DNA of 61,923 nucleotides, filler included, from Sphacelaria rigidula (GCA_964200075.2; 9 parts of 9 records of this genome joined end to end with filler, not necessarily neighbours in it), one strand, 5' to 3'; positions 4,582-58,563 are shown, numbered from the whole stretch's first letter. The notes: generated by a model from the sequence alone, not told the origin. A program made the numbers and translations.

Positions 4582-5215
4582 TGCGAGGTCAATGGTCTGA
4601 TGACTATGGCATGCATGATCATGAGTACACCCCCCCCCCCACTTGCCCCCTCCCTGGTGCAGCGAGAACCCGGCGTGCTTTGTCCTGGCTTCGTAGGGAC
4701 GGACCCCTCGTGAGGTTGGCGTCGGTTGGCAATGACGCTGTGAAACACGCCACTCACTGGGTTAGCTGGGCAACCACGTTACCGTTTGGTTTTTGCGCGC
4801 TTGCGTCTTTTTGCGGTAACCATGATGGTGGCCGAGCTAGATCATATTGTGCGCGGTCTTCGAACCTCAACTCCGCGCAAAGGGAATGATCAAACCACGT
4901 AGTGTTTAAATTGTAAGACACCCATGAGGCAGTGTGGACGCCGTGGCTGTCCCTGGAAGTGGCGATACAAGAAAATGAAGCAACGCATTCGAAGTTGTCA
5001 TCCGTATGCGAGATGGTCAGTACGCTTCGGGCGGAACAACCTTTGCAGGATGCAGCTCACCCTTCATGAGACTCGCCGAACACATCACGGCGCTTCGCGC
5101 TTGGTGATGGAGTGCGAGCCTGGTTCAGCGAAAACCCGGCGTGCTCCGTCTCGGCTTTGTAGGGATGCGAGGTCAATGTCTCATGCCTACGGCATGCGAG
5201 ATCATGAGTACTCCC
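4582..5215 (+). mobile_element. C-tract element family A: 3' fragment (4582-4630) followed head-to-tail by a ~560-bp full-length copy (4656-5212)
   Basis: Colinear with the reverse complement of 11177-11735. Both parts end ...gatcatgagtac followed by a C-run. Confidence 0.85.
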
Positions 5216-6047
5216 CCTTCCCCCTCCCCTCTCGTTACATAACTTCCTTTCACTTCAATATCGAGCATAGAAATAGCAGCCCGTCTCCAGCAATCCGTTG
5301 ACCTCTTTTTATCCACTTCCTCGCTTGCGGCAGTTAAACCAACTCTTATGCTGACGTTGCTCATACGACGGGGGAACCCCCCCCCCCCCCCCCCCCCCTC
5401 CCAAACCAGCCCCACAACTGTCACGAAGAAAAATGATTATACAGTCCGTGATAGCTAGATTCAGACTTCATGAAGCGCCTCATATGGGCGAAACCGGTAA
5501 AAATCGTCCCGAATGCGGGAGTTCCCAGCCGCTCGGTGTGCTCGGCTCTCTTCATTTTGATTTACATGTAGGCTTCACCGCCTCAAACCAGCCACTCCTC
5601 TAGGGGGATGTTATCGCGACATCAGCCGGTCGCAGGGTTCAAAACCCACAAAATCTGCTCATCACCGGAGCGCGACCGCAACATGTAGAGCAATGCTACG
5701 ATAGAGGCGCACTTTTTTCGCGAACTATTGTCTGGTTCAGGGGCTCGTAACGATTGTAGATGCACAATAATATGGGTCAGGGGCATCCCAGTCTGCAAGT
5801 CTATTCGGGATATCCCCGGCACATTGGAGTAGTAATCCTGGCGTACTTTCACATATTTTCATAAGTGGTGTTTTGCAGGAGATCAAGGGCTCCTAACAAT
5901 TCTGAACTCAGAAAATGTTTGTTCACGCCTACCGTAGCATCACTCTGTACCCACCTGTAATTCTGTACCCGGAGCGGAACGAATGGCGTTGTCCGTGTGC
6001 CCAACATCTAAAAGTAGTTTCGCACGGAGTGGACCGAACAAGCATGA

Positions 6048-6048
<1 letters not shown>

Positions 6049-6113
<65 letters not shown>
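6049..6113. repeat. (CA)n microsatellite
   Basis: Direct observation. Confidence 0.97.
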
Positions 6114-6115
<2 letters not shown>

Positions 6116-6354
6116 GACCAGTGAAAGTACTGCACGCTTAATCCCTGCAGACGCACAGGATACCTGCAGGTAGCTTGCAAAAACTTGTGTAAAAACTCGC
6201 ATTAGTCTGCAGGAGCCCTGTAGGCCTGCAGGATCTTTTCATCATTGGTCGGGATGTGGAACACTCAACACTTCCCGCCGGGGCGTCCCACCTTCCTTGG
6301 GTGCACGTACCCAACCCATTCAGGGATCTGTGAATCTTCTGCGACCGTGATGCT

Positions 6355-6792
6355 TTGTTGATTGTCTTCGCGTGTTTGTAGCCGATCAGACACCCATGGG
6401 GCAGTGTAAAAGCCATGGCTGTCTCTGGAAGTGGCGATGCCACAAAATTAAGCAACTCATTGTAGGCTGTCATCCAAATGCAAGATAACCAGTGCGCTTC
6501 GAGCCGAACAATCTTAGCCGGATGCAGCTCATCCTTCATGCGACTCGTCGAATTTGAGTGCAAGCCTGGTCCGGCTTTGTAGGGATGCGAGGTCAATGGT
6601 CTTATGACTATGGCATGCATGATCATGAATACACCCCCTGCCTGCTCCGTCTCGAAAGGGATGCGTGGTCAATGGTCAAACGGCTAAGGCAAGCAACAAG
6701 TGAGTACGCCCCCCCTCCACTCCTGCCCCATCGGGCTGCAATGTCAATCGCTATATGACTACGGCATGCAAGATCATGAGTACACCGCCCCC
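6355..6792 (+). mobile_element. Tandem A-B-A cluster of C-tract elements
   Basis: Truncated family A (to 6633), family B (6643-6710) and a family A 3' end (6733-6786), separated by C-rich linkers. Confidence 0.85.
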
Positions 6793-6892
6793 NNNNNNNN
6801 NNNNNNNNNNNNNNNNNNNNNNNNNNNNNNNNNNNNTTAATTAATTAANNNNNNNNNNNNNNNNNNNNNNNNNNNNNNNNNNNNNNNNNNNN
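6793..6892. other. Artificial contig spacer (also 13685-13784, 20577-20676, 27469-27568, 34360-34459, 41251-41350, 48142-48241, 55033-55132)
   Basis: 44 N + TTAATTAATTAA (stops in all six frames) + 44 N, recurring every 6892/6891 bp. Confidence 0.97.
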
Positions 6893-7285
6893 AATTGTGC
6901 AAACCGGGCCCATAGTGGGGGCCCCGCCCGGTTTGTCGGGCGGTCTCCGGTGCACTTTTGGGGGGGGGGGGGTTGGGCCCCATGACAAATCATACCCTTC
7001 CCCTGACATGCTCCAGCAAGGAGTTGAGTAGACCATCACAAGCCGGAAAAAGAGTACCGCTGCTTGGGCAAGAGTTGCTTGGGCTAGAAACACGTTTTTT
7101 CTTCTTTTTTTCTTCTTTTTTTTTTCAGGGGGGGGGGGGATACTCATGTGCTGCGTGCCTCAGTCACTTGACCATTGGGGGGACAGGGGAAGGGGCAGGG
7201 GGGCGAACTTCATCATCAGCACGTGGGATTTCAGCGAACATGCAATGCTTTCATTTACTTGTAAATTTCAATTGTTGCACCAAGA

Positions 7286-7595
7286 ACCCCTCCCCCTTCC
7301 TCGGGACGAGTCTGTGGTGTCAAGGAGTATCCGTCCCTCTCTCCCCGGTACACGCTTGCATTTTGGTCTCGCGGATTGGGTCATGACTATCACCATTCCA
7401 CTCCTGCACCGCATCAGCTCTCGTCAAACAAACTCAGTCAACTGTCTCGTCAAACAAACCCATATACTCACGCTTTCTTCGACAGTGGAAATCAGAAACT
7501 TCAAAGAAAGAAAACAACGCGTCGGCATTCGAACCCGCACCCTCTCCATCCTAATGATCATCAGACAGTCGGACGATTACACCACCGGGCGCGGC
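7286..7595 (-). mobile_element. tRNA-headed SINE
   Basis: The minus strand has A-box-like TGGTGTAATCG and B-box GGTTCGAATGCC. The body aligns with 60150-60445 and 29690-29990. Confidence 0.75.
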
Positions 7596-7744
7596 TTAAC
7601 TTGATGACATCATGTTATATACAGTATTCTCCCGGGGTTCCTGAGTATTATTTCACCCACCACGCGGGTCTGACCCACGAACTGACACATCCAAAACAAA
7701 AAGGGGAAAAAAAAAGCTCGACAAAACGAGAAGGTCGTCGTCAC

Positions 7745-9198: not shown

Positions 9199-9255
<57 letters not shown>

Positions 9256-11972
9256 CAACCCCTGGGTCCAGGTATTAACCCAAGCCATCTATCCTCTGAG
9301 GATAACAAGTGTGTAAACGAGTCAACAGTGTTAATATAATGTATACTTGCTTCGCCGCATGAAGTTGCTTCGGCATTCTGTATTTGATACCCAAAGCTGC
9401 AGTACTGCATACATCGCAATCAAGATGATGTGAGTTGGAGGCAACAGCAAAACCCGTATCCCCATCTTCCGGGAAAAACAGATTTCGCCGGCAACCTGTC
9501 CCGTGTCTGCTCTACAAGTAAGTCAAGTGAGTTATCCACGATGGGGGGGAGGGGAGGGGAGGGGAGGGGAGGGGAGGGGTACTCATGATCGTGCATGCCA
9601 TAGTTATATGACCGGTCGACCTCGCATCCCTCCCTACGAAGCCGGAACGGAGCACGCCGGGTTTTCGCTGGAACAGGCCTACCTACGATGAAGGGGGGGC
9701 GGGGGTTGATCCCACGAAAAACAGGGGCTCACAAGTGTGTCAGGCAACCCAACTACTCGCGGTGCGCTTGCCTTTGGGTGAACAGGGTCAAGGGGTACGG
9801 ATGAGGGTACCTGTACCTTGTTGGCGTCAAGCGCGTTCGAACCAACCCTGCTGCCTTCGACGACGACGGGACGATTTGAGGTGGAACAAGATATGGCCAA
9901 AATTCCTCCTAATACCCCTCTATCGTAGCAACACTCAAGTACAGTGTAGTAGGTCATGTGCGAGTAGTGTACTGGTGACCCTCGTGTACGGAACTGTACT
10001 TTGCAGAATTCGAGGAGCACTTGCCTGCGTGCTGCCGGTCCAGTTAGTCTGAGCGCTATCCTTGCTGGTTACCGAAACTGCTGCCACGTGATCCTCCGTG
10101 CTCAAGTCGGGTGATCCCTCCCTGGACACCACAGACGGCGCCGCTTGCTGCGGCCTGACGGAAACAATAATTTTTGGGCGCTAGATAAATCAACAGGAGA
10201 TATCGCCACTCGCGGAAGCGCAACACTCGCAGGAAGATCCATCATCTCGACATGGATCAATGATGGGGTACGGAGGCCACCAGTTCGGCACGGACGACTC
10301 TCACATCCGATTCGTGTGTACGATGGAATTAATTTCCCTTGTGATGGCGAGTTGGGCTGGTTTGATCCTCTTGTTTCCTCGCTTCATCCAATGGCATCTT
10401 GTGTGTTCATTTTTACTGAGTAATTGATATATTAGTCGATCGATGTGGTTGGTTAATTATGCATTGAATCAGGCGCTTTGAATCGGTGTTGGCTTGATCT
10501 TTGCTTTCGTTTTGTCTTCGTTGGAAAGTGCAGTGGGAGGCAGTGCGGATAGTTCTGTACTCACACAATCGTACTCGCTAAATACTGCAAAGCACCATCT
10601 CTGTGTAACGCGTGACCATCAGAGCCCCCGTTTTCTCGTCTTTATAGAACGCAACTGTGGTTCATCACATTTCATGGGGACAGACGAGCATCAACTTCTC
10701 CACGGTGAAGGAATTAATGTTCGCATCGGGAAAAACGAACGTTATATCGTCACGATCTCCTATCGTTAGTATCATTATTGACGTTACTATCTTTACAAAG
10801 CTGGCCGCACTCCCATGGCATGAGAGTGAATATTTCTTGGACGGCACGTACTTTCCGGGGGGAAGGGGGGGGGGGCATACTCATTTGTTGCTTGCCTCAG
10901 TCGTTTGACCATTGACCACGCATCCCTTTCGAGACGGATCGCCGTTCCTATCCCCAATAGACACCTCCAACATTTCGGCGCTCATCGCGTTTCTTCCATA
11001 CATCACACAAAAATCGTCTACATATCTTATCCCGGTCCTACTTCGTCGTCTGTGACCATCGTCCATCTCGTAGTATAGCCATCGTTTTCTCTCTACTGTC
11101 TGACCAATCCAATGATTCCATACCATCTTCGTTCATCTCCCGCATTTCCCCCTTCAAGCTTTTGGGGGGGGGGGGAGGCTCATGATCATGCATGCCGTAG
11201 TCATCAGACCATTGACCTCGCATTTCTACTAAGCCGGGACGGAGCACGCCGGGTTTTCGCCGTATCAAGCTCGCACTCAATCACCAAGCGCAAACCGCCG
11301 CTCTGTGCTCAGCGAGTCGCCTGAAGGATGAGCTGCATCCTGCTAAGATTATTCGGTCCGAAGCCCACTGATTACCTTGCATTTGGATGACAGCCTACAA
11401 CGAGTTGCTTTATTGTCTTGTATCGCCACTTACAGAGCCAGTCACGACTTATACACTGCCTCATGGGCGTCTCACCATTTACACACAACGTAGTACGATC
11501 ATCCCCTATGTGCGGAGTTGAGCCTCTCCCACACCGCACAAGATGATCTAGCCCGGCCACCATCATGGTTACCGCAAAAATGACGCAAGCGCGTAAACAA
11601 GTCCGTGAACCTAGTTACCTATCTTACGCAGTGAGTTGCGTGTTTTACAGCATCATCGACAACCGACACCAACCCCATGGGGGGGTCCGCCCCTACAAAG
11701 CCGGGACGGAGCACGCCGGGTTTTCGCCGAACCGGGGGGAGGGGGGGAGGGGGGCGTACTCATCTGTTGCTTGCCTTAGTCGTTTGACCATTGACCACGC
11801 ATCCCTTTCGAGACGGAGCACGGGGGGGGCGAAGAACGGAAACGATCAACAAGGAAAACAATATATGCAGTTTATGAAGTACACACCTATCTGTGTTGGA
11901 GCGGCTAAATCCTTGCCGAGAGGCCGGCACTTCGCCAGCGGGAGAAACGCACTCATACGGGTTCCACGCCAT
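7745..11972 (-). CDS. Spliced gene fragment encoding a low-complexity Ser/Thr/charged protein of unknown function
   Basis: Phase-compatible exons 11972-11953, 10121-10025 (GC donor), 9810-9733, 9162-8998 and 7945-7745. The last two have strong cag acceptors and GTGA donors. The first three are less certain. Confidence 0.55.
8278..8790 (+). repeat. ~510-bp interspersed repeat, second copy at ~33066-33587
   Basis: Colinear similarity throughout, e.g. tttcttgggctcttttcgc, cactgacttgggcactgtgt, ctatcgaagagtagt. Confidence 0.85.
9205..9252. repeat. (CA)n microsatellite
   Basis: Direct observation. Confidence 0.97.
11177..11822 (-). mobile_element. Family B module (11754-11822) head-to-tail with full-length family A (11177-11735)
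   Basis: Reverse complement of 4656-5212 plus the ~70-bp B module. G-runs lie at all three junctions on the plus strand. Confidence 0.85.
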
Positions 11973-13470: not shown

Positions 13471-14172
13471 TTTTGCGGTGCATAGGGGAGTGAAATGAAA
13501 TAAAACATCTACAGACTCACAAACACACAGACACACACTCGCTAGATAGAACCTCGACGAGAAGGGTCGAAATAAGTGCGCGAGGGCGGGCGGGGGGGGG
13601 GGGCGGCCTCCTTTGTTGCTTGCCTTAGTCGTTTGACCATTGACCCCCCACCCCTTTCGAGACGGAGCGGGGGGGGGGGGGGGGNNNNNNNNNNNNNNNN
13701 NNNNNNNNNNNNNNNNNNNNNNNNNNNNTTAATTAATTAANNNNNNNNNNNNNNNNNNNNNNNNNNNNNNNNNNNNNNNNNNNNAGATAACAAAGCAACT
13801 CATTGTTGGCTGTCATCCGAATGCAAGATAATCAGTAGGCTTCGGGCCGAGCAACCTTAGCAGGATGCAGCTTACCCTTTATGCAACACACCACGGCGCT
13901 TCGCGCTTGGTAGTTTGAGTGCGAGCCTGGTCCGGCGAAAACCCGGCGTGCTCCGTGCCGGCTTTGTAGAGATGCGAGGTCAATGGTCTGATGACTATGG
14001 CATGCATGATCATGAGTACACCTCCCAGGGATCCAGCCGTGGTCACATTCGTGTGCAGCAAAAAATAAAAATAAAAAGTGTTCTAGTAAAAACGACATGA
14101 TGGCGTTCTCGAACACTTTCACCACGTACGTACTGCTGGGTTTGTCATGTCTACGTTTGTGCACACTTCGAA

Positions 14173-18723: not shown

Positions 18724-18765
<42 letters not shown>

Positions 18766-21973: not shown

Positions 21974-24695
21974 CTAAAGTACTGAAGGTGGCGGAAGTCC
22001 AAGTCGGACCCTTGCGAGGCGCAAACTCTCGCGTGCATTTCCCGAGACAACTCGATCGGGCGGCAGAGTTCCATCCAACACGCCAACAACGGCATCACAA
22101 ACTTCTCCAAGCACGCGCTCTCCTGCTTCTTCTGTAGATCCCCCAACGTGCGGTGTACAAATCACGTTCGGCAGCCTGTAACAGAAGCGGACGAGCGACG
22201 CACAACAATGAAGACGGAATCCGAAGGCATTAATTCATAGCGCCCACCGTGAACAACAATTGCGCACTTTCGAGCAGAAGGGACACCTGTACCGAGTGTA
22301 CGCTGTTCCCAAACATTCCATCCCATTTAATCAGCATACTGTGTCTAGCAAAGCACCAAACTCTGGGAGTCAAATGCCACCTGCTGAGACGAACCACGTG
22401 CTCCTCAAGCGGTGAGCTTTCCTTGCCAAAAACATCGAGGGCCGCCCCTCCTAATCGCTCCTCCTCCAAGGCCGCAAGCAGGGCTGTTCAAATCGGCAAG
22501 CATTCGGTGTTCTGACTACTGGAGTGTGGAGATTTAGGGAACACACGGCTGGCTTTCACGACGTTCGGCAGGGTTGGCTCGCTTCACCGCAAAACACGCC
22601 CACGAAGAGAAGCGTGACACACCATGATAGTGCCAACCAAGGCAATTGCGTGTCTGACAATACGTCTTGCCATGTGATTGCAGTGCCCATGGGGTAGAGA
22701 AAGCTCGGGACATGCAGAGTACTACATACTACAAGAGTAAATGCATCGTTTGTTGTGGTCATGCAGGTAAATCGTCGCACCGTGTTCATCCACCACTCCA
22801 CCCCTAGCAGCGTTGATTACCACAGCTGAAGACTTCATGATCGCTAGTTCATCTTCGCCAATTAACCCTTTCGTGTCCGGCGTCAACGGCACATGCACGC
22901 TGAGAAAGTCGCTTTGAGGAAGGAGCTCGTGCAGAGACAAGGGCGATGTTTGCACTCCAATCTTCTTCGCCACTGCAGCCCTTTCCTCATTTGCACCGGG
23001 ATGAGGTGATGTGCTGTGATTAGCGATGATAACCACCATGCCCAAAGCAATCGCCATTCTCGCGAGCTGAGATTCGTGGTGTACACAAAAGCATCAAGCA
23101 TAGGCGGTCGATCAGTTGAAGCAGGGAGCTACGGATGAAAAGACGGATTTCCTGGTTATTGCTGCTGTTATTTCCACATGTTAGTTCGATTTCTCGAACC
23201 TCTTGTCACAGATGTAGACTCGCCTTTCCTGTATCCTCGCGGCGATTCCCTACATGAGATAGAGCACGCATTGCTCCGAGACTCCGAAAACAAAAAACAC
23301 ATAATGAAATAATACGAGAGAGAGATGTCAAGAAAACAGAAGGGAAGAAACTCCCCTCAAGTTGGTCGAGATGTGGTAAAAACAAATACGTCGGATTTGC
23401 CAATATAGTAAACACACGTGAAGGAGGGTGTACTCATAATCTTGCATGCCATAGTCATACGACCATTGACCTCGCATCCCTACGAAGCCGGGACGGAGCA
23501 CAAAAGGGGGGGAACACACAAGGAACTGAGATGGATACCGAGGGGAGGTCGAACAATAAGCTCAGGTGACCACAGCTGTTGAAAAGACGGCAGACGCACT
23601 AGCGAGTGTACTATGAGACAGTCTACTCGTTACGCGTCGGTTGCCCTCGATAGGCACAGAGAGGACTCTAGCGGTAACACAGCAAATAATTCCTCAACAT
23701 GGCGCGCTTTGGTCCTAATAAATGCTGTCATTCTACCGTACCCTTGTGTGAGCATCACTGTAATGCACTACTCGATATCAAACAAAAAAAACGATCGTTC
23801 CAACCACTACGCAGCAACTGTGACCCCTCTTCAAATGCGGCCGAGTGCAATAATTCACACAACTGACACTAGGTTTGGCATTACACACACCTCTTGACCC
23901 ACAGAGCCGAATCCGATCACTCCCAGGGTTTTCCCGTATAGAGTGTGTCCGTTGAATCTGCTCTTCGCCCACTCGCCCCTCTGCATGCTAGCATGTGCTT
24001 CAGGTATACTGCGGGATATGCCCAGCATGAGCCCAAACACAAGCTCTGTCGAGAAAGGTTCGTACATGACACTGTTAGTCAGCACTGTGGAGAACTCCGG
24101 TGAGATGTCTCCCATCTATTGTAGCACTTCAAACAAGAATTGCATGGTTGGATCTATAGCCAACTCGATGTAGGATCTTAGCGGTAACGTGTGTAGCTAC
24201 TGCATGTCAACGAGGATCTGATGAACCACTGCAGTGAAAGCCACCGTTGATTACACTGTTAGTGCCACCACGTAGCATCGATACCAGAGGCAGGCCATGA
24301 GTAACACGCTCACAGCCTGTCTACGCGCGTTTGTGCCCTCACCGAAACATTTTCCCGGAGCAGCATTCCCATGGCCACGAACTGTCACGAATGATCACCA
24401 GCATACGCAAACTACTGCACACAAAAGTGCGAGGAACAAAACGTGTTGAGGTCATCTCACCTGCAACCGACCGCGCGTTTCCCGTGGGAGAATTCACGAC
24501 AGGGACACCGAGTTCAGCGGCTGCAACGAGGTCAATATTGTCCACGCCACTCCCTGCACGACCGACTGCCGCCAACCGTGGACTCGCGGCCAACATACTC
24601 CGGGTAACTTTGTTTGCTGATCGAACAATAACAGCATCGTAGGCTGGAAGCACGCGCTCCAGCTCGGCGTTGCTCACACCTCTCTCGGCTGTAAC
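21974..24695 (-). CDS. PHGDH: D-3-phosphoglycerate dehydrogenase-like (D-isomer-specific 2-hydroxyacid dehydrogenase); first exon unresolved
   Basis: Phase-compatible exons 24695-24461, 24045-23891, 23066-22781, 22483-22381 and 22175-21974. Motifs include VIVRSA, VGRAGSGVDNID, GNARSVAE, GKTLGVIGFGSVG, SVHVPLTPDTKGLI, INAARGGVVDE, GGAALDVF and TPHVGGSTEEA. Confidence 0.88.
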
Positions 24696-27790: not shown

Positions 27791-27893
27791 CCCCTTCCTC
27801 GGGATTCGCTCCGTCTCGAAAAGGATGCGTGGTCAATGGTCGAACGACTAAGGCACGCAACAAATGAGTACGCCCCCCCCCCTTCCTCGGGAT
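27791..27893 (+). mobile_element. Family B module with a 15-bp target-site duplication, inside a SINE fragment
   Basis: ccccttcctcgggat at 27791-27805 and 27879-27893 flanks the module. Uninterrupted SINE copies carry this motif once (e.g. 7292-7306). Confidence 0.85.
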
Positions 27894-30178: not shown

Positions 30179-32970
30179 GGTGTACAGAGCGTATGGGAAC
30201 GCGAGGTGGACATGGAGTCGGTAAGCCTCGAAGAGTAAGGCCTAGGACAAGGTAGGGACTGACGGGCGGTGGGCGCGGGGGGCACTGCGCCTTGAGTGAG
30301 GGGTATGACCATATCCCGAACAGGATATTGGAGAATGGCACGGTCCGGGTCGAACGAACGGGTCATTAGTAAGCGGGTCGAGTCATATGCAGGTGGTGAT
30401 CTCAACCAGTATCTCGAAGTTGACCCGCTGTTGCCTTGTTTCACCTGTCCTCCGTCTACTCTTGGATTTCAGTTACATTTTCCCGTACAGCCGAAACCTC
30501 AATCATTTACAGTTTCCGCGTGCCCAGCCCCTCAGTTGGCATCTCTGAAGATTTTTGACGGTTGTGATATTGGTATGTGTCTCGCATTATTTCACCGCTT
30601 GTCCTCCGTGCGTCTCATTGCCACCGTCCTGCTGTTGTGAAAAAGTTGGAGCTAGGTGTGCTACGCCTGCGACCTCGTACCGTCTGCGCTACACCTGCGT
30701 CATCCTCCACCACCGTTCGAGGAGTTAGGCATGTGACGAGAAAAGCCACACGGTTGTCGGGGTTGTCCGCTGTACTTCCCGAGGCCGATGTGGCTTTCGA
30801 GGTGAGACTGCCAGACGGCTAGCGTTTCCTATGGGGGAAAACGACTATTCAATGATGACTGCATTTTTCGTCATATGTTTGTCACGATTTCCCCCCGCCC
30901 TCTTATTTTCTTTTCTCAAGTCTGCTCTGTTTCGTCTACCCTTTTTTTGTGTTTTGTTTTTCTTCATTTTTCTTCAGCGTGGGCACACGATGGCCATCAG
31001 AAGTTACACTACATCCACCCAATACAACGTACATGCACAGCATGTCCATTCTTCAAATAGATCCCTACCTCTCCCTCCCGAGCTTCGTGTCCAAAGGGAT
31101 GCGTGGTCGATGGTCAAACGACTGAGGGAAGCAACAAATGAGTACGCTCCGCCCCCCCCCCCCCCCTCACCCCACCTCACCCCTGACATCGATGTCACCA
31201 TTGTTATTGACCCACCATGCAGGTAGGAGCAGCCACGCCCATACTGGAGGGTGTTTTCGCCATCCTGAGGGGATGCAAGGGCTTCGAAGAGCAAGCCCTA
31301 GTACGAGCGACCGCCTTCATGGGCGAAACACACGGAGTGTCTGGTCGGACGGAAGAACTGAAAAAATCACGGGAGGCGTTCATGGCAACGCTTTTGGAGC
31401 ACGCCGTGGCTGCGAACCGTGCGTGTGAACAAAGCGGTGAGGGCGAGCCGTCGACGGGGTTTGGCAGACTTACCACAAGGAGATTACAGGTGCGGTGTGT
31501 GTGTGCGTGTGTGTGTGCGTGTTTCTTGAAATAAGGAGGAAACCTGACCCAACACTTTCCTCTCAAGCGGGCTGGTATGCCGATTACCGGGGAGGCTCGC
31601 TAGACTCCCTTGCTTGTGGGAGTCATGTGGGTTAGGCGCTTCGAGTGTCGGGAAGCTTTGCTCAAGGCAGTGTGGGGGTCCGATCCTCTAAAAATACCCC
31701 GTCAACTTGGCGCAGTGCATGTGCCGCCCCACTCTCATGAGCTTCGGCCCCAAGTGGTGCAGTGTTTGTTTGTTCATGTTTGAGTATGTGGGTCGGAGCG
31801 CACAATGGTCGGTTTGTTAGAGTCACGTTGAAGTTTTACGTCATTTCACTGTGGGACTACTACTACTGTACAGAATTTACACACCCTGGACAATGGCGAT
31901 ATGTGGTCAATATTAACAGATGTAATAGACAGGATATGTACTGGATAAAGTATAGGCCTAGTGCAACTATTGACGGCCGGCAAAAGTTGCAATAGGTCTA
32001 TACTTTTACCCAGTACACTTGTTGTCTATTGCATCCATCTATTGACCATATACTGTCATTGTCCAGCGTGTGAAGAAATTCCCCAAGAGTCGGATGGATA
32101 ATGATTCGTTTGAATGTTGAGTGATTTTTACTGTAGTTGATTCGTAACGTACGAATCAAGTAATCCTTCAGCCGTGTTTTTCAGCGTTGTACCTCAGGTA
32201 AGCGCACCCCTGGCACGTGGAATACAGCAAAATTTGCATAAAGACGTTTTGACCCGCGATCGACGTTGGTTCTCTCTTGCGAGCACTTGGGTCTCGGAAA
32301 TCGTAGATTTGGTCATAAGAACCGGCCATAATTTGCCCCATACTTGAAATGTTCTCTACCTTCCTCCCCTCCGCCCCCTATCCCCTAAAAGGGAAATGAA
32401 AAAATGCCGAGGCGATAAACTACGATGACTTTTTTTCGAGGCTTTTTATTGTTGGTTTCTTGCTTTCCTCTTGTCAAGACACGGCCTACAGACGTTGATG
32501 CTTGTTGGGCGATTCAAGGAAAGCGGTGTGTAAAGCCGAGTTTTTTTTTAACAGGATATGTAAGGTTTGCCTGTAGGATCGGAGCGTGTGCCGCTGTGGT
32601 TCGTCGAGCTGTTGTTGAGGCGTGTGTTAACCGACGCTGTATAATCACTGAGCTCCGTGTTGCGTCCTGCTTGCTACGCTTCGACGGATGATTGCAAGGA
32701 CGAAGAAGAGGCAGTTGTTTGTTCTCCCATTATGTTCAGGTTTTACTTCACGCGTACATCATCTGTCGATCATCCATGCCGTCGGTATTGAACGAGGGAG
32801 GGGCAAAAAATATTGTGAACGCCCTCATGCAGCGCAGATTGCGCCTTGGTATGAACATCACCGGAGGGTTCGGGGGCTCCTTTTACGCACGACAGAATCT
32901 TGCGAAGCTGGCTCTCGTGTGCCGTGCATCACTTGGCACACATGGTAACCTCCTGACTAGATTTGACGCC
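30179..32970 (+). CDS. Spliced gene fragment, tentatively a divergent MCM-family (MCMDC2-like) AAA+ region
   Basis: Phase-compatible exons 30179-30220, 30491-30572, 30656-30801, 31223-31489 and 32740-32970. The exon structure is well supported. The MCM assignment rests on by-eye motif spacing only. Confidence 0.6.
31874..32080. mobile_element. Fold-back MITE (whole-length imperfect palindrome) in an intron
   Basis: cacaccctggacaatggc..tggtcaata..aatagaca..tgtactgg..aaagtatag..tgcaact is mirrored around ~31975. Confidence 0.8.
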
Positions 32971-35558: not shown

Positions 35559-38500
35559 GCAGATCCTGGAGCGTAAGTATAATCGATTAAATTTGACTTG
35601 CTTTTGAAGGAAAGAGAAGAAAATCCAGTATAACAGTATCCTACCTGCCTGCTGTGCTGCACAGACTGCACGATACGGCACCGTCCGTGCGATATGTAAT
35701 GTCTACAGAGCTTGTGGTTTGGTGAGTTTTTCTAAGCGCACGACTGACCGAAGGCAAGCGTACTTGAAAAATGCAATCTGGCATTGAGCTTCTGGGTGCC
35801 TCTTGTTGTTGTGTCCGACAGCGATCTACTGCCGCTACCGACCCCCGCGACAGCAAAGATTGAAATCCTGAGCGATTTTCCAGACACAACGCAGCTGTCC
35901 GGCTGTCTGCGCAGAAACAACAGCAGACCACAGCATCATGAAGCAGGTAGTTGCTCGTGGCAACAAACCGTGTGGCTGTGACGTAGAATGCATTTTGTTA
36001 AGAAGCCACGCATCGACTGGTGAGAAAGTTGGGGTCGGAATTTGGGGAGGTTGGGGCTGGACCGTTGGAAAGGGTGGTGAAATACGATTAGGATGCTTTG
36101 ACTAAGAGCTGGGACTATCTACTACTAGCATTGAGTTCCAGTGATGGCAATGACGGTTAACGTTTTCTTTTTGTACCCCCCTCGCCCCTCCCCCCCTAGT
36201 TTGACACCCATGATGCAGTGTAAAAGCCGTGGCTGTCTCTGGAACTGACGATACCACAAAAAAAAGCAACCCATTGTTGGCTGTCATCCAATTCCTAGAT
36301 TATCAATAGGCTTCGAGCCGAACAATTTTAGCAGGATGCAGCTCACCCTTCATGCAACTCGTCGAATACACCACGTCGCGTCGCGTTTGGTGATATGAGT
36401 GCAAGCCTGGTCCGGCGAAAACCCGGCGTGCTCCGTCTTGGCTCAGTAGGGATGCGCGGTCAACGGTCGTATGACTATGACATGCATGATCATGAGTGCA
36501 ACCCTCTGCCTCCCGGACTGTGTTGTGATTGCCTTGGCATCCCATGTATTCTCGACGCCAGTCTACCTCTCGAAACTTGTGAGCGCATCAGCCGGGGCCC
36601 CACAGGAGGAAGGTCAGCACGAGAGTTTCTCCTTCTTTTTTTTTCTTCTTAATCCACCGTCCTTGTACGGTGGAATAGGGGCGAATTGCCGCCATCGCCG
36701 GGCGGAAGAATTATTTCTCGGCCGTTGGCCCATGCAGGGTAGTGCACGAGCAGGGGAAACAAAAACAAAAAAATCGACTGGAGAATGCAAACTATTCCAT
36801 CAAAATGATTGCGTACGCATCGGACACGTTTAAGGGCCCCGCCTGCGTGAAATACGTAACTCGTGGCATAGAGGAGTATATAGTTACCGGTCGATTACGC
36901 ACTTGCCTTTCCGATTACCCCTCCATTTTCTTCAGAGAGAGGTCACGAGAAAAAGTATCTACCGTACTTAAAAGCGTAATTCATGCGCAGCCAGCACCAT
37001 CCTGTCTTGGCATGGGACCGAGAGCGGACAAATCGTCCGATGCCGCTTATTTTTGTAGTACGAAGCAGTTTTCCCAAAACGCCTTATATCGCGAATTCAG
37101 TGCGAATTCTTGCCAGAATAAGGAGTTCAGCGGATGATGCTACTTCAAATCGACTTGTCGCTGCTTCAGTGCGAATTTTCGCTGGAATAAGGGGTTCGGC
37201 CGGTTGTGCCACCTCGAAAAGACTTGTCGCTGCACTCACTTCGAGGGCCCTAGCGCACTCATTCGATATTCAGTGTCCCCAGTTTGACTTTAGGCCAAGT
37301 GAATGCTTTATCAAGCAACCCCGAAATTATACTACCGTTTTTTTCTGGGATCATTATCATTATCGCACAATAGCCCCGTCTCTCGAACCCGTGGTCACAG
37401 GCGTAGACTCTCGCTTTTCCAGTGCCGTCACCACTCTCCCTTGCATGAGATGGAAGCGCCCATTGTGCGGCTTCGTCTAAGACTCCCAAAACAGAGCAAA
37501 ATAGATATGTATCAGTAAGAGATGGACGTCAAGGAAACAAACGACAACCACCCCCTCCTGAGTTCGTCGGGGTGTGGGAAAACAAACATCAGGTCTGCCA
37601 AAGAAGTAAAGAAACGGCATGGAGACCAAGTAAGGATCAAACTACATCCCCAGGTACTCACGGAGAGAAACATGACCGTTTTCAGGGATACGGCAGACAC
37701 ACGAGCGAGTACACTACTTGATGGGCTACTCGTTGTATTCCGACGATCTTCGATAGACACAGAGGGAATTCTAGTGGCAAAGCAAAAAGTTGATTTACAT
37801 GGCGTGGATTGGTCCAATCCGTCATGCGCTTCTTAGCTGCTTCCCCTACGACCCGGTACGACTCTGGACCATTTTTCCGATTTACGTCCATCATGTTGCA
37901 TCTATTCCGAAGGTGAAGCAGTACTCAGGGATACGGTGTTGCAAGCGTTTCGCGATTTGGCCTGCCTTCTTGTCTCCTCCGACCATTTCTCCACGCATGA
38001 CGATGTCGAGGAGGCGCTCGTCGAGCTTGCGCGCGACGTGGCCAGCATACAGTAGGACTTGCCTCGATAGCCTCGATGCAATCGCAGACAGCCCCCTCGA
38101 TACCCTGGCAGCAGGCATCATAAGGTAGTGCGGGGCGCTGTGCGTTAAGATGTGCTTGTTGCGGCACCTGCGGCACCTCAGCAGTAATCCGCGGCGGGCT
38201 TTGCGTAACAGGCTGATTGGGTGAGAAGGTTTGAATCACCCAGCCGTAACGCATGATCTCAATCACTTCCGACGCCAGGAAACGAGCATTTGCGGCCAGA
38301 GCAATGTAGGCGTTGCTGCATATCGGTCTGCTGCACTCGATGAAGTACTTCCAGGCCTGGCCAATGCCGCGGTTGACGTCAGTGGTGACGTCGCCGATGC
38401 TGTTTACGGTACCGCCGAGATGGACGAAAATACTCCACTTGCTCGCGCCTTTGGTCTGCCGCCTCCACCTCAACCACGTCCGCCTCCACTCCCGCATGTG

Positions 38501-41970: not shown

Positions 41971-42068
41971 CCGACGCGTGAAGGCGCGCCCCAGGTGAAA
42001 TTGACCTGGGGAACCTCCGCCGACCCAGCGCCACCACAATATCCCAGCGTCGAGGAAGTCAACTTTGG

Positions 42069-54901: not shown

Positions 54902-55170
54902 TAGTACGGATCCCTGGACCATACTCGGTACGTCAGTATGTGATAAAGGTCGTCATGATAGTTGTTGTTGTCTTCACATTAGAAGCCGTTCTGATATCTA
55001 CGCGGTACATTGGTACTGGGCATCTTATGCGGNNNNNNNNNNNNNNNNNNNNNNNNNNNNNNNNNNNNNNNNNNNNTTAATTAATTAANNNNNNNNNNNN
55101 NNNNNNNNNNNNNNNNNNNNNNNNNNNNNNNNAAAAAAAAAACCCTTTTTTGAGTAAAAAAAAAAAGAGC

Positions 55171-55213
<43 letters not shown>

Positions 55214-55501
55214 GGGGAGCGAGAGGGTCACAGTTACAGGGAAAATGTATGAAGACATGTCCCGACGAAATACCATCATGTCGTAGCATCATGTACTAGA
55301 AATACTAAGGATAGGGTAACGTGACTGGGCGGGACAGAAGAAAAAGTACGGACACGACAGGACAAGAAAAAAAAATAAAAAGCAAGGCTGAAGAGGGGAG
55401 GAAACGTGAAGAAACACAACCGCACGAGAAATTGAAGATCATCACGATCCAAAAACCGAACTTTGAAACGATAACAGGATAAAAAATACCGGGGAGCTTG
55501 C

Positions 55502-57736
55502 CTGCCGTGCCATATATGGACGGGGTGTAGCACCTCCGCGCCGCGCACGAGCTCGTCCTCGAGAAGAGTGTTGCGCAGCGCGATGGCCACCTCGTGGGTG
55601 ATAGAATCCTTGCCCTCCTTGATCTCCGTTACGTGCTGAATCAGCTCCTGCTCCATCATCGGAGAGATGGGCAGACGGACAGACGGACGCGGTGTGATTT
55701 GTCATGTTCCACTTAAAGTAAAAAAAAAAGCAGACGCATCACACTCATCGCGAGCGCGGTATAGTACCATATTCCTAAAAGTGTAAGAAATGAGGGAGGG
55801 GGAGGGGGAGGGTGGGGGGGGGGGTATACATCAATTATATGTATACATGCATCGCAAGAGCCGCACAGCGCAGCGTCGTATTATTCCAGTGTAAGCGATT
55901 AACTGGGAGGAAACACCTACATCATCAACTCAGAGGGAGAAGAAAGACGAGAGAGATGGAGCGAGAGAAACCACATTGGCATGCTAATAAAAATAATAAA
56001 AAAAAATAAGCGCATGCAAATCGTGCCTCGAGCGAATAACGAAAAAGCCGTGAAATGTAAAAAAGACGACGAGCCAATCAAGAACTTTCATGCATGGCCG
56101 TGGAGGCCCACCTTACGTGTCGGACATCGCGCAGCGGTGATCCTAACGGTACGTCTCAACAACGGTCAGGGAGAGGTGCCACGGTGCGGGTGCATAAATA
56201 TTTTTCTAGATTCGAATCGTGAAGAGCCCTGCATCTCATGCAAAGACATCTTATTGGGCCATGCTGCGGTAGGGGCTGCACGTTTCAGCCCAGATGTTTC
56301 TCATTCAGGGGCTCTTCGAGTCAGGAGCTATATTAGACAAACAATATGGGTCAGGATACTACCGTTTCCAAAACTCATTCGGGATATCCTCCTTGTCCCT
56401 TGCAATGCCAATCGTGAGCGTGCTCTCACATATTTCATATACTATTTTTTGGGATCAGACGAAGGGTTCCTGACAATTCAAAAGGCAAAATATTTGTGCC
56501 CCTCTACCGCTGTAGCACCACTATGATGATTTTTTCTTTTCTTTTATTTGTCGCACTTTGAACCCCTCCCCTTGCTCGGGATGAGTCCGTGGTGGTTCTA
56601 AAGGGATCAACCCATGTATCCCCGGTACACGCCTTGCACTTTGGTCTCGCGGATTGATTGGGTCAGCACTCCCGCACCGCGTCAACTCACGCCCAACGAA
56701 CATAAATCCCTCTAATTGAAATATGTGAGAGCACGCCACGACTAGCATTCAAACGGGCTAGGGATGTCCCGAATGGGTTCGGAAAAAGCCAAAGTCCTGA
56801 TCCATGTTCTTGTATAGCCTCTAACTTTGGGAGCCCCCGATTGGGAAAGATCTGGGCCCAAAATATGCATCCCCTCTCGTAGAATGACACCAGGTTGGGG
56901 TTGAAACGTCAACCCCCGACAGGATCTTGAGTTTGCCCCCGGCGAATATCTGATTTCCGACGTTAAACACGCGAGGACGCAAGTAAAGGCGGTGCGCAAG
57001 TACTGAATCCAACCCGCCCAGAGTAGCCAGCGCTTTCCCATTTCCGCACGTCTCACTATAACGCCTCATTATTCAGCGAAAACCAATTGATGTATTTACC
57101 GTGTCGAGGACGGGGAAAGGTTGAAGCACATCACACACACATATATATATATATGATAAGCATTTAGATATCTTTACATCAACATATGAATACATGAATA
57201 AGTATATCGTACAGATGTTCACCACAGCAAGGGTGACAAATATGTTTAATAATAATTAAAAAAACGATATAGAATCAACAGAATACAAGAAAAAGTGGTG
57301 CAAAATGTCAACTTTCCGAGTATCTTCACCATCCTATTTACCGGCCGCGCGTTCCACGTCTTCGATATTTTGTAGCGCAACAGTACAGTACCGCGAATGT
57401 GTACAGTGCAGCAAAGTAGATATTAGGGGCGTGCATCTCATCCACCCGTCCACCCAGCTTCGCCATCACGACCTACAACATCTTCGATTTTGTCCTCCCC
57501 CCCCCCCCCCCCCCCTTTTTTCTCGTCCTCTTTTCTTTTCATTTTTATTTCATTTCGCACCTGGGTGTACGGAGCTTCCAGATACCCGCTTTCGATGTCG
57601 CTGGAACCGTTCGAGTTTTTCCACAAGGCCATCTCGGAAAAAGCACGAATAGCAATCATGGCCGTTACACTGCTAGGGTCTAATGCTTCCTGCACGAAGG
57701 TCGCCTTCGACATTCCCACCAAGGCTTCGGACGACC
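55502..57736 (-). CDS. Two internal exons of an unidentified protein
   Basis: 57736-57561 (SSEALVGMSKATFVQEALD..GYLEAPYTQ|gtgcga) joins in phase 0 to 55647-55502 (ELIQHVTEIKEGKDSITHEVAIALRNTLLEDELVRGAEVLHPVHIWHG, GC donor). Confidence 0.65.
56270..56880. repeat. Diverged ~170-bp inverted repeat arms (56270-56438 / 56717-56880) flanking a SINE 3' fragment
   Basis: gcgtgctctcacatatttca / tgaaatatgtgagagcacgc and cattcgggatatcc / ggatgtcccgaatg. The SINE body lies at ~56540-56700. Confidence 0.7.
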
Positions 57737-58563
57737 CTGTACAGTGCGAGTTGTTGAAATTGATTGAATCAGGCACAACCAAAAGCGGGCGCGAGGACAG
57801 GAGGGGGGGGGGAGGGGGGCGTACTCATTTGTTGCAGGCTATAGTTTCATTTGACCATTGGTCATTGACATTTGACCACGCATCCAGTCCGAAGCGGAGC
57901 ACCGTTTCTACTCCTCATGGAGACACCTCCGAGGTTTGCAAGGGTCGGACGAATTAAATATCCGGAAAGTCCGGAAATTACTTGATTTTAGTGTGATTGA
58001 TTCGTACGGTACGAATCAATCATTACGCTTTGTTTTCAGCGTTGCAACCCAGGTACGCGAAGCCCAGGCACGTGGAATGGCGCTAAAGTTGCGTGGAGAC
58101 CTTTTTGACCAGCGGTCGACTTCTTTTCTCTCTTTCAATCACATCAGGCCCGAGAAATCATGGATTTGGTGATTTGAACCGGCAATGATTCGTCCGAACT
58201 GTGAACATTCGGGCGCGCTCATGACGGGTCAGCGGCGGGGGGCGGGGGGGCATGATTGGAAACATAATAATCAATCACAAAGTCAAAGCATAGTTTTTTG
58301 TTCGACAAGACATTATTAATTATTATACTACAGCGACAGACTAGCACCCGCATCAGCAGCAGCTTCTTTCTCCACTTCTTATATTCAATCGGTGCGGACA
58401 ACGCGAACATTCCTACAATACCGCAACAACAACAAAAATGGATTTTTATCAATCGTATGAATCACAAAAAAAAAAAAAATCATCGCATTTGCGTCAGCGT
58501 GTCTACAATATTTCAGCGAAATCCTCCATTGTGAAGATAATGCTGCTGCATCGTCTTTTTATT

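What the first reader, a model, noticed from the sequence alone, without database searches (positions are those of the whole stretch)
4582..57902. Abundant poly(C)-tailed, C-tract-associated element family with a covarying structured 3' module
Seen: about 17 copies in two related types. Type A lies at 4582, 4656, 6355, 6733, 9578(-), 11177(-), 13785, 23428(-) and 36197. Type B lies at 6643, 7140(-), 10876(-), 11754(-), 13602(-), 27808, 31082 and 57818(-). A = GTGCTC CGTCCC-ggctttgta-GGGATG CGAGGTC AAT GGTC-tgat-GACT ATGGCATGC..TGAGTAC-ACCCC. B = GTGCTC CGTCTC-gaaa-GGGATG CGTGGTC AAT GGTC-aaac-GACT AAGGCAAGC..TGAGTAC-GCCCC. Stems are kept while loops change: the 9-nt loop becomes a GAAA tetraloop, and the second loop is tgat/ttat/gtat/aaac/gaac/aagt. 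One pair swaps (gcgAgg..gcaTgc vs gcgTgg..gcaAgc). GTGCTC can close with GAGTAC. The G-U pairs work only on the C-tailed strand. 3' ends are shared while long copies have variable 5' ends. Known: a fixed 3' end with 5' truncation is the signature of target-primed reverse transcription, and some non-LTR elements target simple repeats. Inference: a non-autonomous retroposon system that targets C/G homopolymer tracts through a structured RNA 3' end, with a C-tail rather than an A-tail.
Basis: partly seen in the sequence, partly recalled or inferred. Interest (0 to 1): 0.78.

Follow-up and report, generated by a model that had tools for sequence, protein, structure and literature searches.

The report
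Poly(C)-tailed LINE and its short partner
The repeats are insertions of a brown-alga jumping gene (an RTE-type LINE) and of a short non-coding element that borrows the LINE's last ~70 bases and its unusual string-of-C tail; the kind of system is well known and the family seems to be catalogued already in Ectocarpus.

Summary
The repeat family is real: all 17 listed copies were recovered. The window comes from a brown alga and is made of 9 joined pieces.

- **Type B** is the 3' end of an autonomous non-LTR retrotransposon. A 1253-aa endonuclease plus reverse-transcriptase ORF on related contigs runs through the module. Its stop codon lies in the closing stem, then 4-5 bases, then poly(C).
- **Type A** is a ~573-nt non-coding partner sharing the last ~70 nt and the C tail. 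By description it matches RTEX-N1_Ec32, published for Ectocarpus in 2025.
- **The module** is an island of nucleotide conservation. A 14-16-mer is identical in LINE lineages only 36-48% identical in protein. Two hairpins keep pairing through changes on both sides, which points to an RNA signal read by the reverse transcriptase.
- **The tail** is lineage-specific: relatives end in (ATT)n, not C.
- **The target:** one insertion has a 15-bp target duplication starting CCCC, and paralogous empty sites carry only that CCCC. So the C tail arrives with the element and a long C tract is not required.
- **Insertion pattern:** copies pile head-to-tail onto earlier C tails, and many start exactly at the module's first base.

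This is a new member of a known kind.

The parts
4582..4640 (+). Type-A partial module (starts inside the module) plus C11 tail. It lies directly upstream of the full-length A copy.
4653..5229 (+). Full-length type-A non-autonomous element (~573 nt). It has a 47-nt terminal direct repeat (4653-4699 = 5119-5165), the module at 5141-5211 and an interrupted C tail.
6372..6638 (+). 5'-truncated type-A copy with an internal deletion; module at 6566-6632. First member of a three-copy head-to-tail array.
6642..6715 (+). Type-B 'mini' copy (module only) plus C tail; second member of the array.
6730..6792 (+). Degenerate type-A partial module plus C tail; third member of the array. It runs into the piece edge.
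7128..7177 (-). Type-B partial module (last ~38 nt) plus C12 tail.
9557..9690 (-). 5'-truncated type-A copy (~110 nt) with a (CCCCT)n tail.
10865..11157 (-). 3' fragment (~280 nt) of the autonomous LINE, matching P0001 residues 1162-1253 with stops, plus C11 tail. It starts just after the tail of the A copy upstream.
11164..11736 (-). Second full-length type-A element with C12 tail. It starts just after the tail of the B mini copy upstream.
11742..11829 (-). Type-B mini copy (module 11756-11821, near consensus) with a C-rich tail and a C8 run on its 5' side.
13592..13684 (-). Type-B mini copy with C12 tail and a C16 run on its 5' side, at the piece edge.
13785..14026 (+). Type-A copy whose 5' part is cut off by the piece edge; module at 13948-14019.
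23423..23503 (-). Type-A copy consisting of the module only. It starts at GTGCTC and has a short C tail.
27791..27893 (+). Type-B mini insertion (27806-27872) with C10 tail, flanked by the 15-bp target-site duplication CCCCTTCCTCGGGAT (27791-27805 and 27879-27893).
31080..31166 (+). Type-B mini copy plus C15 tail.
36197..36505 (+). 5'-truncated type-A copy (~305 nt) with a degenerate tail.
57800..57938 (-). Type-B LINE 3' fragment (~120 nt, with an internal duplication in the second hairpin) plus C tail.

Best explanation
The copies are insertions of one retrotransposon system of a brown alga.

- **Type B** is the 3' end of an autonomous, single-ORF non-LTR retrotransposon with an apurinic-type endonuclease and a reverse transcriptase. 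It is RTE-like, probably the RTE-X clade.
- **The ~66-nt module** is the last ~20 codons, the stop codon and 4-5 untranslated bases. A poly(C) tail follows.
- **Type A** is a ~573-nt non-coding element of unknown origin. It carries the same ~70-nt module and C tail and is copied in trans by the LINE protein.
- **Role of the module (inferred):** it is the RNA signal that the reverse transcriptase recognises ('stringent' 3'-end recognition). It folds as a closing stem, a hairpin P2 and a hairpin P3 on a longer arm.
- **Role of the tail (inferred from one clean site):** the C tail pairs with the G run exposed when the endonuclease nicks the opposite strand at a short C run. This is analogous to poly(A) pairing with T at L1 targets.
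- **Consequence:** because every insertion leaves a new C tail, later insertions land in or beside earlier tails and build head-to-tail arrays.

Shown here: the LINE partner, the shared module, its nucleotide-level conservation, one target duplication with empty sites, the C tails and the arrays. Inferred: recognition by the RT, priming on the G run, and dependence of A on the LINE.
For: **LINE partner.**
- On metagenome contig L014 a 1253-aa ORF (P0001) with Exo_endo_phos and RVT_1 domains runs through the type-B module and stops in ...AAATGAGTAC, followed by G and C8.
- L094 carries a 95%-identical LINE ending in C13.
- Window 10865-11157(-) is a fragment of this LINE.

**Host.** The closest named relatives of the LINE are Ectocarpus proteins at 47-71% identity. 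A host gene exon is 64-79% identical to brown-algal proteins.

**Non-autonomous partner.** Type A shares only the module with the LINE. Its body gives no match to L094 or L014 by nhmmer or blastn.

**RNA-level constraint.**
- LINE lineages only 36-48% identical in protein keep the 14-mer TGCGTGGTCAATGG exactly.
- The codons TGC GTG GTC AAT are identical at their third positions in 3 lineages.
- The ~700 nt of ORF before the module do not align at all by blastn.
- The non-coding type A keeps the same bases.

**Structure** (35 distinct sequences).
- 89.0% of cells pair, against 82.6% in shuffles (0 of 500 reach it) and 31-52% with slid partners.
- Both-sided changes occur at P1 pair 1 (G-C/A-U), P2 pair 3 (U-A/C-G) and P3 pairs 3 and 4 (U-A/C-G; C-G/G-C/A-U).

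**Insertion.**
- A 15-bp target duplication flanks 27806-27872. Three paralogous empty sites carry only CCCC where the filled site has C10.
- 13 of 16 assessable 5' flanks have CCCC within 20 nt, against a 5.7% background.
- There are five head-to-tail adjacencies in three arrays. A simulation gives P about 2e-4 for four or more.

**Genome scale**. Contigs of the same organism (X1, X3), of a ~1%-diverged strain (X4) and of another species (X8) show long C tails and module-C9-module joints.
Against: - No full-length LINE lies in the window. The partner is seen on contigs from other samples. Their module is about 90-96% identical to the window's mini copies, and their last ~235 nt are about 82% identical to the window's LINE fragment.
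- Thermodynamic support is weak and mixed. Type-B z-scores are -0.2 to -0.7, or -2.0 for the exact 66 nt. Type A gives -1.2 to -2.8. The distant lineages give +0.97 and -1.27.
- RNAalifold on its own kept only 3 pairs of P3.
- The count of pairs with a both-sided change (6) is reached by 95 of 500 shuffles. The changes come from only about 3-4 lineages, and the alignment was fitted to the structure.
- In L096 a long alternative helix competes with P2.
- Only 1 of 16 copies gave a clean target duplication.
- RTE-X membership and identity with RTEX-N1_Ec32 rest on a published description, not on a sequence comparison.
Confidence: 0.8

Rival explanations
1. Strict site specificity: the element needs a pre-existing C/G homopolymer tract as its target, like LINEs that target microsatellites.
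For: - 13 of 16 5' flanks carry a C run.
- Several copies have C8-C16 on both sides.
- Copies form head-to-tail arrays, and module-C9-module joints occur across the genome.
Against: - The only insertion with a clean duplication and paralogous empty sites went into CCCCTCCCC. There is no homopolymer tract there, and the C10 tail is new.
- 3 of 16 copies have no CCCC upstream.
- 11 of 24 long C/G runs have no module nearby.
Confidence: 0.25
2. The arrays and the C runs at 5' junctions arise within single insertion events. On reaching the 5' end of one RNA, the reverse transcriptase jumps onto the C tail of another RNA and copies all or part of it. On this view they do not come from serial insertions into old tails. 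This does not exclude the main explanation.
For: - The upstream members of arrays are often short or truncated at odd points (4582, 6730) or are C runs alone.
- The junctions are C-rich with a few other bases.
- All array members share one orientation.
- Template jumping is known for R2 and L1 enzymes (recalled, not checked here).
Against: No array has a recognisable duplication flanking the whole array. Members of one array differ in type and apparent age (scores), which fits serial insertion as well.
Confidence: 0.35
3. The module is conserved because of the C-terminal peptide it encodes (..GCVVNG..), not because of an RNA function.
For: The peptide motif is kept in homologues at 35-40% identity, and the module lies in frame in all three lineages.
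Against: - Third codon positions of four codons are identical in three lineages.
- The residues after VVNG differ while the hairpin stays paired through double changes.
- The non-coding type A keeps the bases but would change Val to Glu in that frame.
Confidence: 0.1
4. The module is a self-cleaving ribozyme or a tRNA-like processing signal that cuts the RNA at its own 5' edge. That would explain why so many copies begin exactly at GTGCTC.
For: - 6 of 17 window copies start within 3 nt of the module's first base.
- Many contigs leave the sequence at that point.
- The layout of a closing stem, one unpaired base and then CCC resembles an acceptor end (my reading).
Against: - Rfam gave nothing at the gathering threshold.
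- Rfam gave nothing at E up to 1 or 5 on type-A and type-B regions, apart from a chance snoRNA hit at E=2.5 on the other strand.
- ARAGORN found no tRNA-like gene.
- CUGAUGA occurs only in some type-A loops and is not conserved.
Confidence: 0.1
5. The module-plus-C-run units are a minisatellite amplified at the DNA level by unequal crossing-over or slippage, not by retroposition.
For: Tandem module-C9-module joints were seen in 15 contigs of X1, 4 of X3 and 5 of X4. The window holds a three-member array at 6566-6792.
Against: - Array members are of different types (A, B, A; and B, A, LINE fragment).
- Solitary copies exist, one with a target duplication.
- All copies end at the same base followed by a tail.
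Confidence: 0.07

Closest known systems
RTEX-1/RTEX-2_Ec32 LINEs and their partner RTEX-N1_Ec32 in Ectocarpus (PMC12477816, Genome Biol 2025; passages read)
   Same: - The host is a brown alga.
- A ~600-bp non-autonomous element of unknown 5' origin has a 3' end conserved with autonomous LINEs, and it is the most abundant family.
- The window also holds a Tudor-domain Gypsy element like the Gypsy-10_Ec32 described there.
   Different: The passages I read say nothing of poly(C) tails, C-run targets, a structured module or the module-only copies. The window's species is not one of the brown algae in the protein collection: best exon identity is 64-79%.
Stringent-type LINE/SINE pairs, for example eel UnaL2/UnaSINE1 and RTE-clade pairs such as the tobacco TS SINE with its RTE LINE (PMC3747384, passages read; PMC4176376, search listing and start of abstract only)
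   Same: The non-autonomous element shares ~70-100 nt of the LINE's 3' end. A stem-loop in that tail is taken to be the RT recognition site. The tail is a simple repeat rather than poly(A).
   Different: Here the recognised element lies almost wholly inside the ORF, with the stop codon in the closing stem and a 4-5-nt UTR. The tail is a C homopolymer. The review's tables list (TTG)n, (CA)n, (CAA)n, (CCAT)n, (ATT)n and the like for RTE, RTEX and RandI, and no (C)n.
L1 with Alu: the poly(A) tail pairs with T at a TTTT/AA nick (recalled from general knowledge, not checked here)
   Same: A homopolymer tail pairs with the complementary run exposed by the endonuclease. The target duplication starts with the tail's base. 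New copies tend to land in the tails of old ones.
   Different: L1 recognition is relaxed and needs the tail only. Here a specific structured module is kept as well, and the base is C, not A.
Microsatellite-targeting LINEs, such as Tx1-clade elements in (TC)n or (TTC)n and R4/Dong in (TAA)n (recalled, not checked here)
   Same: Insertion is associated with a simple repeat that matches the element's own tail.
   Different: The one clean empty site here has only CCCC, so a repeat tract is not required.

Membership tests
LINE plus LINE-dependent non-autonomous retroposon (stringent 3'-end sharing) | An autonomous element encoding endonuclease and reverse transcriptase ends in the same 3' sequence. 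| tested here: met
   The L014 and L094 ORF (1253-1360 aa; Exo_endo_phos plus RVT_1) ends in the type-B module and a C tail. A window fragment lies at 10865-11157(-). The full LINE is seen only on contigs from other samples.
LINE plus LINE-dependent non-autonomous retroposon (stringent 3'-end sharing) | The non-autonomous element shares only the 3' end with the LINE. | tested here: met
   The type-A module matches model R1. The type-A body has no match to the LINE.
LINE plus LINE-dependent non-autonomous retroposon (stringent 3'-end sharing) | Target-site duplications and 5' truncation. | tested here: met
   A 15-bp duplication with three paralogous empty sites was found for 1 copy. The other 15 of 16 copies gave none or only C runs. 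5' ends vary.
LINE plus LINE-dependent non-autonomous retroposon (stringent 3'-end sharing) | Mobilisation of the short element depends on the LINE protein and on the shared tail. | not testable with these tools
   This needs a retrotransposition assay.
RTE group / RTE-X clade of non-LTR retrotransposons | One long ORF with an N-terminal AP-type endonuclease and an RT, with no RNase H domain. | tested here: met
   Pfam finds only Exo_endo_phos(_2) and RVT_1 in P0001. P0002 is 1360 aa starting at M. A separate upstream ORF1 was not looked for.
RTE group / RTE-X clade of non-LTR retrotransposons | A very short 3' UTR ending in a short simple repeat, not poly(A). | tested here: met
   There are 4-5 nt between the stop codon and the tail. 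The tail is (C)n in the brown-alga lineage and (ATT)n or (TTTA)n in the related lineage.
RTE group / RTE-X clade of non-LTR retrotransposons | The RT domain groups with RTE-X reference elements in a phylogeny. | not testable with these tools
   No Repbase or Dfam reference RTs are on hand. The assignment rests on the published Ectocarpus annotation.
RTEX-N1_Ec32 (Ectocarpus) | Sequence identity to the published consensus. | not testable with these tools
   The supplements are closed. Only the description matches: ~600 bp, non-autonomous, 3' end shared with RTE-X LINEs, most abundant family.
SINE in the strict sense (Pol III transcribed) | A head derived from tRNA, 5S or 7SL with an internal promoter. 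| tested here: not met
   ARAGORN found 0 genes in the window. Rfam found nothing at the gathering threshold or at E up to 1 on 4500-5300.
Ribozyme-bearing retroelements (HDV-like 5' ribozymes, hammerhead retrozymes, Penelope-like elements) | A match to a known self-cleaving ribozyme motif. | tested here: not met
   Rfam gave no ribozyme hit at E up to 1 (4500-5300) or E up to 5 (10800-11900). CUGAUGA is not conserved. A new ribozyme class is not excluded.
Simple-repeat-specific LINEs | The empty site is a tract of the repeat. | tested here: inconclusive
   The one empty site has CCCC only. However, 13 of 16 5' flanks carry C runs, and 5 of those are tails of upstream copies.

The most novel reading that the evidence does not exclude
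The ~66-nt module plus a C tail is a complete retroposition cassette in its own right.

- RNAs consisting of just this three-helix element, with a precisely defined 5' end at GTGCTC, are copied by the LINE in large numbers. That would make it the smallest LINE-dependent retroposon.
- Together with C-run-primed insertion into earlier tails, it builds module-Cn arrays and seeds the long C/G homopolymer tracts of brown-algal genomes.
- The element would be an ancient RT recognition signal embedded in the last ~20 codons of the ORF. It is held at nucleotide level across lineages whose proteins have drifted to ~36-48% identity, while the tail repeat changed from (ATT)n to (C)n.
- The sharp 5' end would then need an RNA-processing or protection step that is still unknown.
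Probability: 0.3. Interest if true: 0.6.

Novelty: new member of a known kind. Interest (0 to 1): 0.4.

Why it matters
The finding explains an abundant repeat and roughly half of the long C/G homopolymer runs in this window. It ties them to a LINE family that dominates brown-algal genomes.

Three points go beyond what I could find in print:
- the tail is a C homopolymer;
- the element the reverse transcriptase presumably recognises lies inside the end of its own ORF and is conserved at base level far beyond the protein;
- module-only copies with a fixed 5' end are common.

These give a compact, testable model for how a 'stringent' LINE picks its template and primes on its target. Long G/C tracts can also form G-quadruplex or i-motif structures and break assemblies, so their origin matters for genome annotation in these algae.

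Tried and rejected
**Known RNA families and genes.**
- Rfam at the gathering threshold on the whole window: 0 hits.
- Rfam at E up to 1 on 4500-5300: 0 hits.
- Rfam at E up to 5 on 10800-11900: only SNORD73 at E=2.5 on the other strand, which I take as chance.
- ARAGORN: no tRNA or tmRNA.

**Searches of sequence collections.**
- The window's own genome is not held.
- Metagenome pattern scan: of the 84 stretches found (80 listed, L001-L080), only 3 carry the module (L014, L063, L024); the others are chance matches to an 18-base pattern.
- Viral-contig pattern scan: 9 loci, none real; L091 is a chance match.
- Viral-contig protein scan: none.

**Origin of the type-A body.** It has no similarity to the LINE's upstream 1.4 kb or its ORF. 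Its origin stays unknown, as the Ectocarpus paper also states.

Rejected as a base pair; see the observation check.

**Target duplications.** The search on 16 copies gave only one clean case.

**5' junctions of the LINE.** L014, L063 and L024 all run off their contigs.

**More distant LINEs.** L103 and L109 (23-28% identity) show no recognisable module at their ORF ends.

**Literature on poly(C)-tailed retroposons.**
- 'poly C tail' plus 'non-LTR retrotransposon': 0 papers.
- A five-term search including 'poly C', 'LINE' and 'homopolymer': 0 papers.
- 'poly-C tail' plus 'retrotranspos': 4 papers, unrelated judging by title.
- Supplements of PMC12477816, and Repbase and Dfam, could not be seen and may describe the tail.

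**Sequencing runs.** Parts of the stretch without cover in X8 are not evidence of absence.

**Earlier findings of this scan.** Nothing for this genome or sequence. The word search found only poly(A)-tailed LINE fragments of a red alga, which do not bear on this.

**Failed call.** (a Pfam scan of an RT fragment) failed because the frame has stops. I did not repeat it.

Full report
**1. What the window is**

The 61,923 bases are nine equal pieces of 6,792 nt joined by 100-nt linkers (44 N, TTAATTAATTAA, 44 N). Neighbourhood across linkers therefore means nothing.

The DNA is eukaryotic. It holds a Ty3/gypsy pol (RT, RNase H, integrase) followed by a Tudor domain, and an exon of a 2-hydroxyacid dehydrogenase. 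The best named matches of that exon are brown algae: Ectocarpus sp. 6, Hapterophycus and Pylaiella, at 64-79% identity over 52-63% of the query. No whole genome is held for the window.

**2.

- The core 11-mer occurs 12 times against 1.3 expected; 0 of 100 shuffles reach 12.
- nhmmer finds 18 pieces.
It gives one extra doubtful hit at 120-206(-).
- Of 24 C/G runs of 8 or more in the window, 10 are tails of copies on the right strand, 3 are 5' flanks of copies and 11 have no module nearby.

**3. Type B is the end of an autonomous LINE**

An 18-base pattern scan of metagenome contigs found 84 stretches. Only 3 carry the whole module; the others are chance matches.

On one of the three, L014, a single open frame of 1,253 residues runs straight through the module. 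It has an AP-type endonuclease domain and a reverse-transcriptase domain. The frame stops at the TGA inside ...AAATGAGTAC. One G and a C run follow.

A scan of genome contigs found L094. It carries a 95%-identical element with a C13 tail. The window holds fragments of this LINE:
- 10865-11157(-) matches residues 1162-1253, with stops;
- 57800-57938(-) is a shorter fragment.

The nearest named relatives are unnamed Ectocarpus proteins at 47-71% identity.

**4. Type A is a non-autonomous partner**

- Two full-length copies, 4653-5229(+) and 11164-11736(-), are ~573 nt long and about 80% alike.
- Five further copies are 5'-truncated.
- Type A shares only the last ~70 nt and the tail with the LINE. 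Its body matches nothing in the LINE contigs, no tRNA and no Rfam family.
- It begins with a 47-nt copy of the sequence that precedes its own 3' module core (D11). I cannot explain this repeat.

**5. The module is constrained as nucleic acid**

Related LINEs sit on contigs filed as prokaryote MAGs, which is evidently eukaryotic DNA. They are 36-48% identical in protein. They still end with the 14-mer TGCGTGGTCAATGG exactly, then ..GGCAGCA.., then CATGAG.

- By blastn the RT core of these elements aligns with L094 at 57-59%.
- The ~700 nt before the module do not align at all.
- The module aligns at 77.5% over 40 nt, with a 16-nt exact block against L096.
- The codons TGC GTG GTC AAT are identical at their third positions in three lineages. 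The residues after ..VVNG differ.
- The non-coding type A keeps the same bases.

So the peptide motif GCVVNG seen in distant homologues is more likely the shadow of an RNA or DNA signal than its cause.

**6. Structure**

I counted pairs on 41 hits, 35 of them distinct, aligned to R1.

| Measure | Observed | Control |
|---|---|---|
| Cells that pair | 89.0% | 82.6% in column shuffles (0 of 500 reach it); 31-52% with slid partners |
| Pairs with a both-sided change | 6 | reached by 95 of 500 shuffles |

- Both-sided changes occur at the outer pair of P1 (G-C/A-U), the third pair of P2 (U-A/C-G) and the third and fourth pairs of P3 (U-A/C-G; C-G/G-C/A-U).
- The 12 nt of P3 lie between invariant flanks in all lineages, so that alignment is not in doubt.
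- Four pairs are mostly G-U, so only the C-tailed (sense) strand can fold this way.

Results against the structure:
- The both-sided changes come from three or four lineages only.
- The alignment was fitted to the model.
- RNAalifold alone kept 3 pairs of P3.
- Folding z-scores are modest and mixed, from -2.8 to +1.0.
- In L096 a 7-bp helix competes with P2.

P3 is well supported. P2 and P1 are moderately supported.

**7. Tail and target**

All brown-alga copies end in C runs or C-rich tails. The related lineage ends in (ATT)n or (TTTA)n after the same module. The C tail is therefore a lineage-specific form of the simple-repeat tail typical of RTE-like elements.

The copy at 27806-27872 sits inside another repeat family. 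Three paralogues of that repeat lack exactly the insert.
- The filled site has the 15-bp duplication CCCCTTCCTCGGGAT on both sides.
- The empty sites read ..CCCCT CCCC TT.., so the site had four C's and the C10 tail came with the element.
- The duplication begins with C's. That is what priming of the C tail on the G run of the nicked opposite strand would give. This step is inferred.

Evidence for a preference for C-rich sites:
- 13 of 16 assessable 5' flanks carry CCCC within 20 nt, against a 5.7% background (binomial P about 3e-14).
- Five of the 13 are the tails of an upstream family member. Without those the count is 8 of 11.
- The window holds three head-to-tail arrays, all in one orientation: 4582|4653; 6566|6642|6730; and 11821|11736|11157.
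- A rough simulation gives P about 2e-4 for four or more such adjacencies.

Serial insertion into old tails and template jumping onto C-tailed RNAs both fit the arrays.

**8. Genome scale**

I laid Logan contigs of four runs on 6893-13684.
- X1 and X3 match the unique parts with no differences, so they are the same organism.
- X4 differs by about 1%.
- X8, another species, covers only the repeats (13 of 30 bins).
- Loose ends at the 3' edge of the A copy have a consensus of about 18 C (170 contigs in X1, 199 in X4).
- At the module's 5' edge, one class of contigs continues into LINE sequence (264 in X1, 221 in X3, 261 in X4).
- Another class turns into a C run within about 5 nt (199 in X1, 187 in X3).
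- Joints linking a module's 5' edge directly to the C run of another module occur in 15 contigs of X1, 4 of X3 and 5 of X4.

Summed depth on the elements is orders of magnitude above the unique flanks, but the tool warns that this is not a copy number.

**9. A sharp 5' end**

Six of 17 window copies start within 3 nt of the module's first base: 6642, 11821, 13668, 27806, 31080 and 23501. Random 5' truncation would not give this pattern, and the contig data above agree.

A module-only RNA seems to be a common template. What defines its 5' end is unknown. No known ribozyme or tRNA-like motif was found.

**10. Comparison with what is known**

The Ectocarpus transposon survey (PMC12477816; passages read) reports several points that match:
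- RTE-X LINEs are the most abundant LINEs.
[quoted passage not shown] - There is a Tudor-domain Gypsy element.

All of this matches in description. I could not compare sequences, because the supplements are closed and no Repbase or Dfam is on hand.

The review PMC3747384 (passages) documents LINE/SINE pairs that share 3' ends, mostly in the RTE and CR1 clades. It lists tails such as (TTG)n, (CA)n, (CAA)n and (CCAT)n, and none of (C)n.

Three literature searches for poly(C)-tailed retroposons found nothing relevant.

**11. Verdict**

The system is a stringent-type LINE with a non-autonomous partner, a known kind, and probably the family already catalogued in Ectocarpus.

Three features I could not find in print are worth a specialist's look: the C-homopolymer tail primed on short C runs, the recognition element embedded in the ORF's end and conserved at base level, and the abundant module-only copies with a fixed 5' end.

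Noticed in passing
window 6793-6892, 13685-13784 and so on (8 linkers): The window is a concatenation of nine equal 6,792-nt pieces joined by 44 N + TTAATTAATTAA + 44 N. Two family copies are cut by piece edges (6730-6792 and 13785-).
   Followed up: yes
window 43196-46838 (+): A Ty3/gypsy pol (RT, RNase H, integrase) is followed by a PTM/DIR17-like Tudor domain. This resembles the Tudor-carrying Gypsy-10_Ec32 reported for Ectocarpus.
   Followed up: partly
window 38647-39219 (-): A fragment of a second, different non-LTR reverse transcriptase, 30% identical to P0001 residues 623-822 and with stops. No R1 module was found near it.
   Followed up: no
window 2151-2337: Two ~16-18-nt units (..ACTTTCTACGAWAG..) each have a long G run on the left (G17, G35) and a C run on the right (C15, C13). 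They could form long G:C hairpins, or they could be tail-only remnants of opposed insertions. A 10-N gap lies between them.
   Followed up: no
window 7255-7307, 27753-27805, 29664-29716, 56530-56582: Another dispersed repeat family with a T-rich stretch followed by ..AACCCCTCCCCTTSCTCGGGAY... It served as the paralogous empty site for the insertion at 27806.
   Followed up: partly
window 4653-4699 and 5119-5165; 11690-11736 and 11225-11271 (-): Full-length type-A elements begin with a 47-nt direct repeat of the sequence just before their own 3' module core. The repeat includes the 5' strand of P1 and the whole P2 hairpin. Its origin and role are unexplained.
   Followed up: partly
L094-L121 (genome contigs): Contigs filed as bacterial or archaeal MAGs, some of megabase size, carry many copies of eukaryote-type endonuclease/RT LINEs. 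These bins probably contain eukaryotic DNA.
   Followed up: no
L094 461-519 (-): A module-like sequence lies on the opposite strand upstream of the LINE ORF. It keeps GTGCTCCGTCTC and GGTCAATGG but lacks the P3 hairpin (R1 E=1). It is possibly another family's 3' end.
   Followed up: no
L094 5169-5259: Directly after the LINE's C13 tail and a G-rich spacer comes a fragment similar to type-A positions 78-136. This is another tail-adjacent insertion, in a different sample.
   Followed up: partly
P0001-P0042, N-terminal ~170 residues: The LINE proteins share a conserved N-terminal region ahead of the endonuclease (..VFGV..LE..D.GL..F..G.V..EG.H.R..L..). It has no Pfam match and may be an RNA-binding part fused to the ORF.
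   Followed up: no
window 9557-9577 (-): One type-A copy has a (CCCCT)n tail of about six units instead of a pure C run.
   Followed up: no
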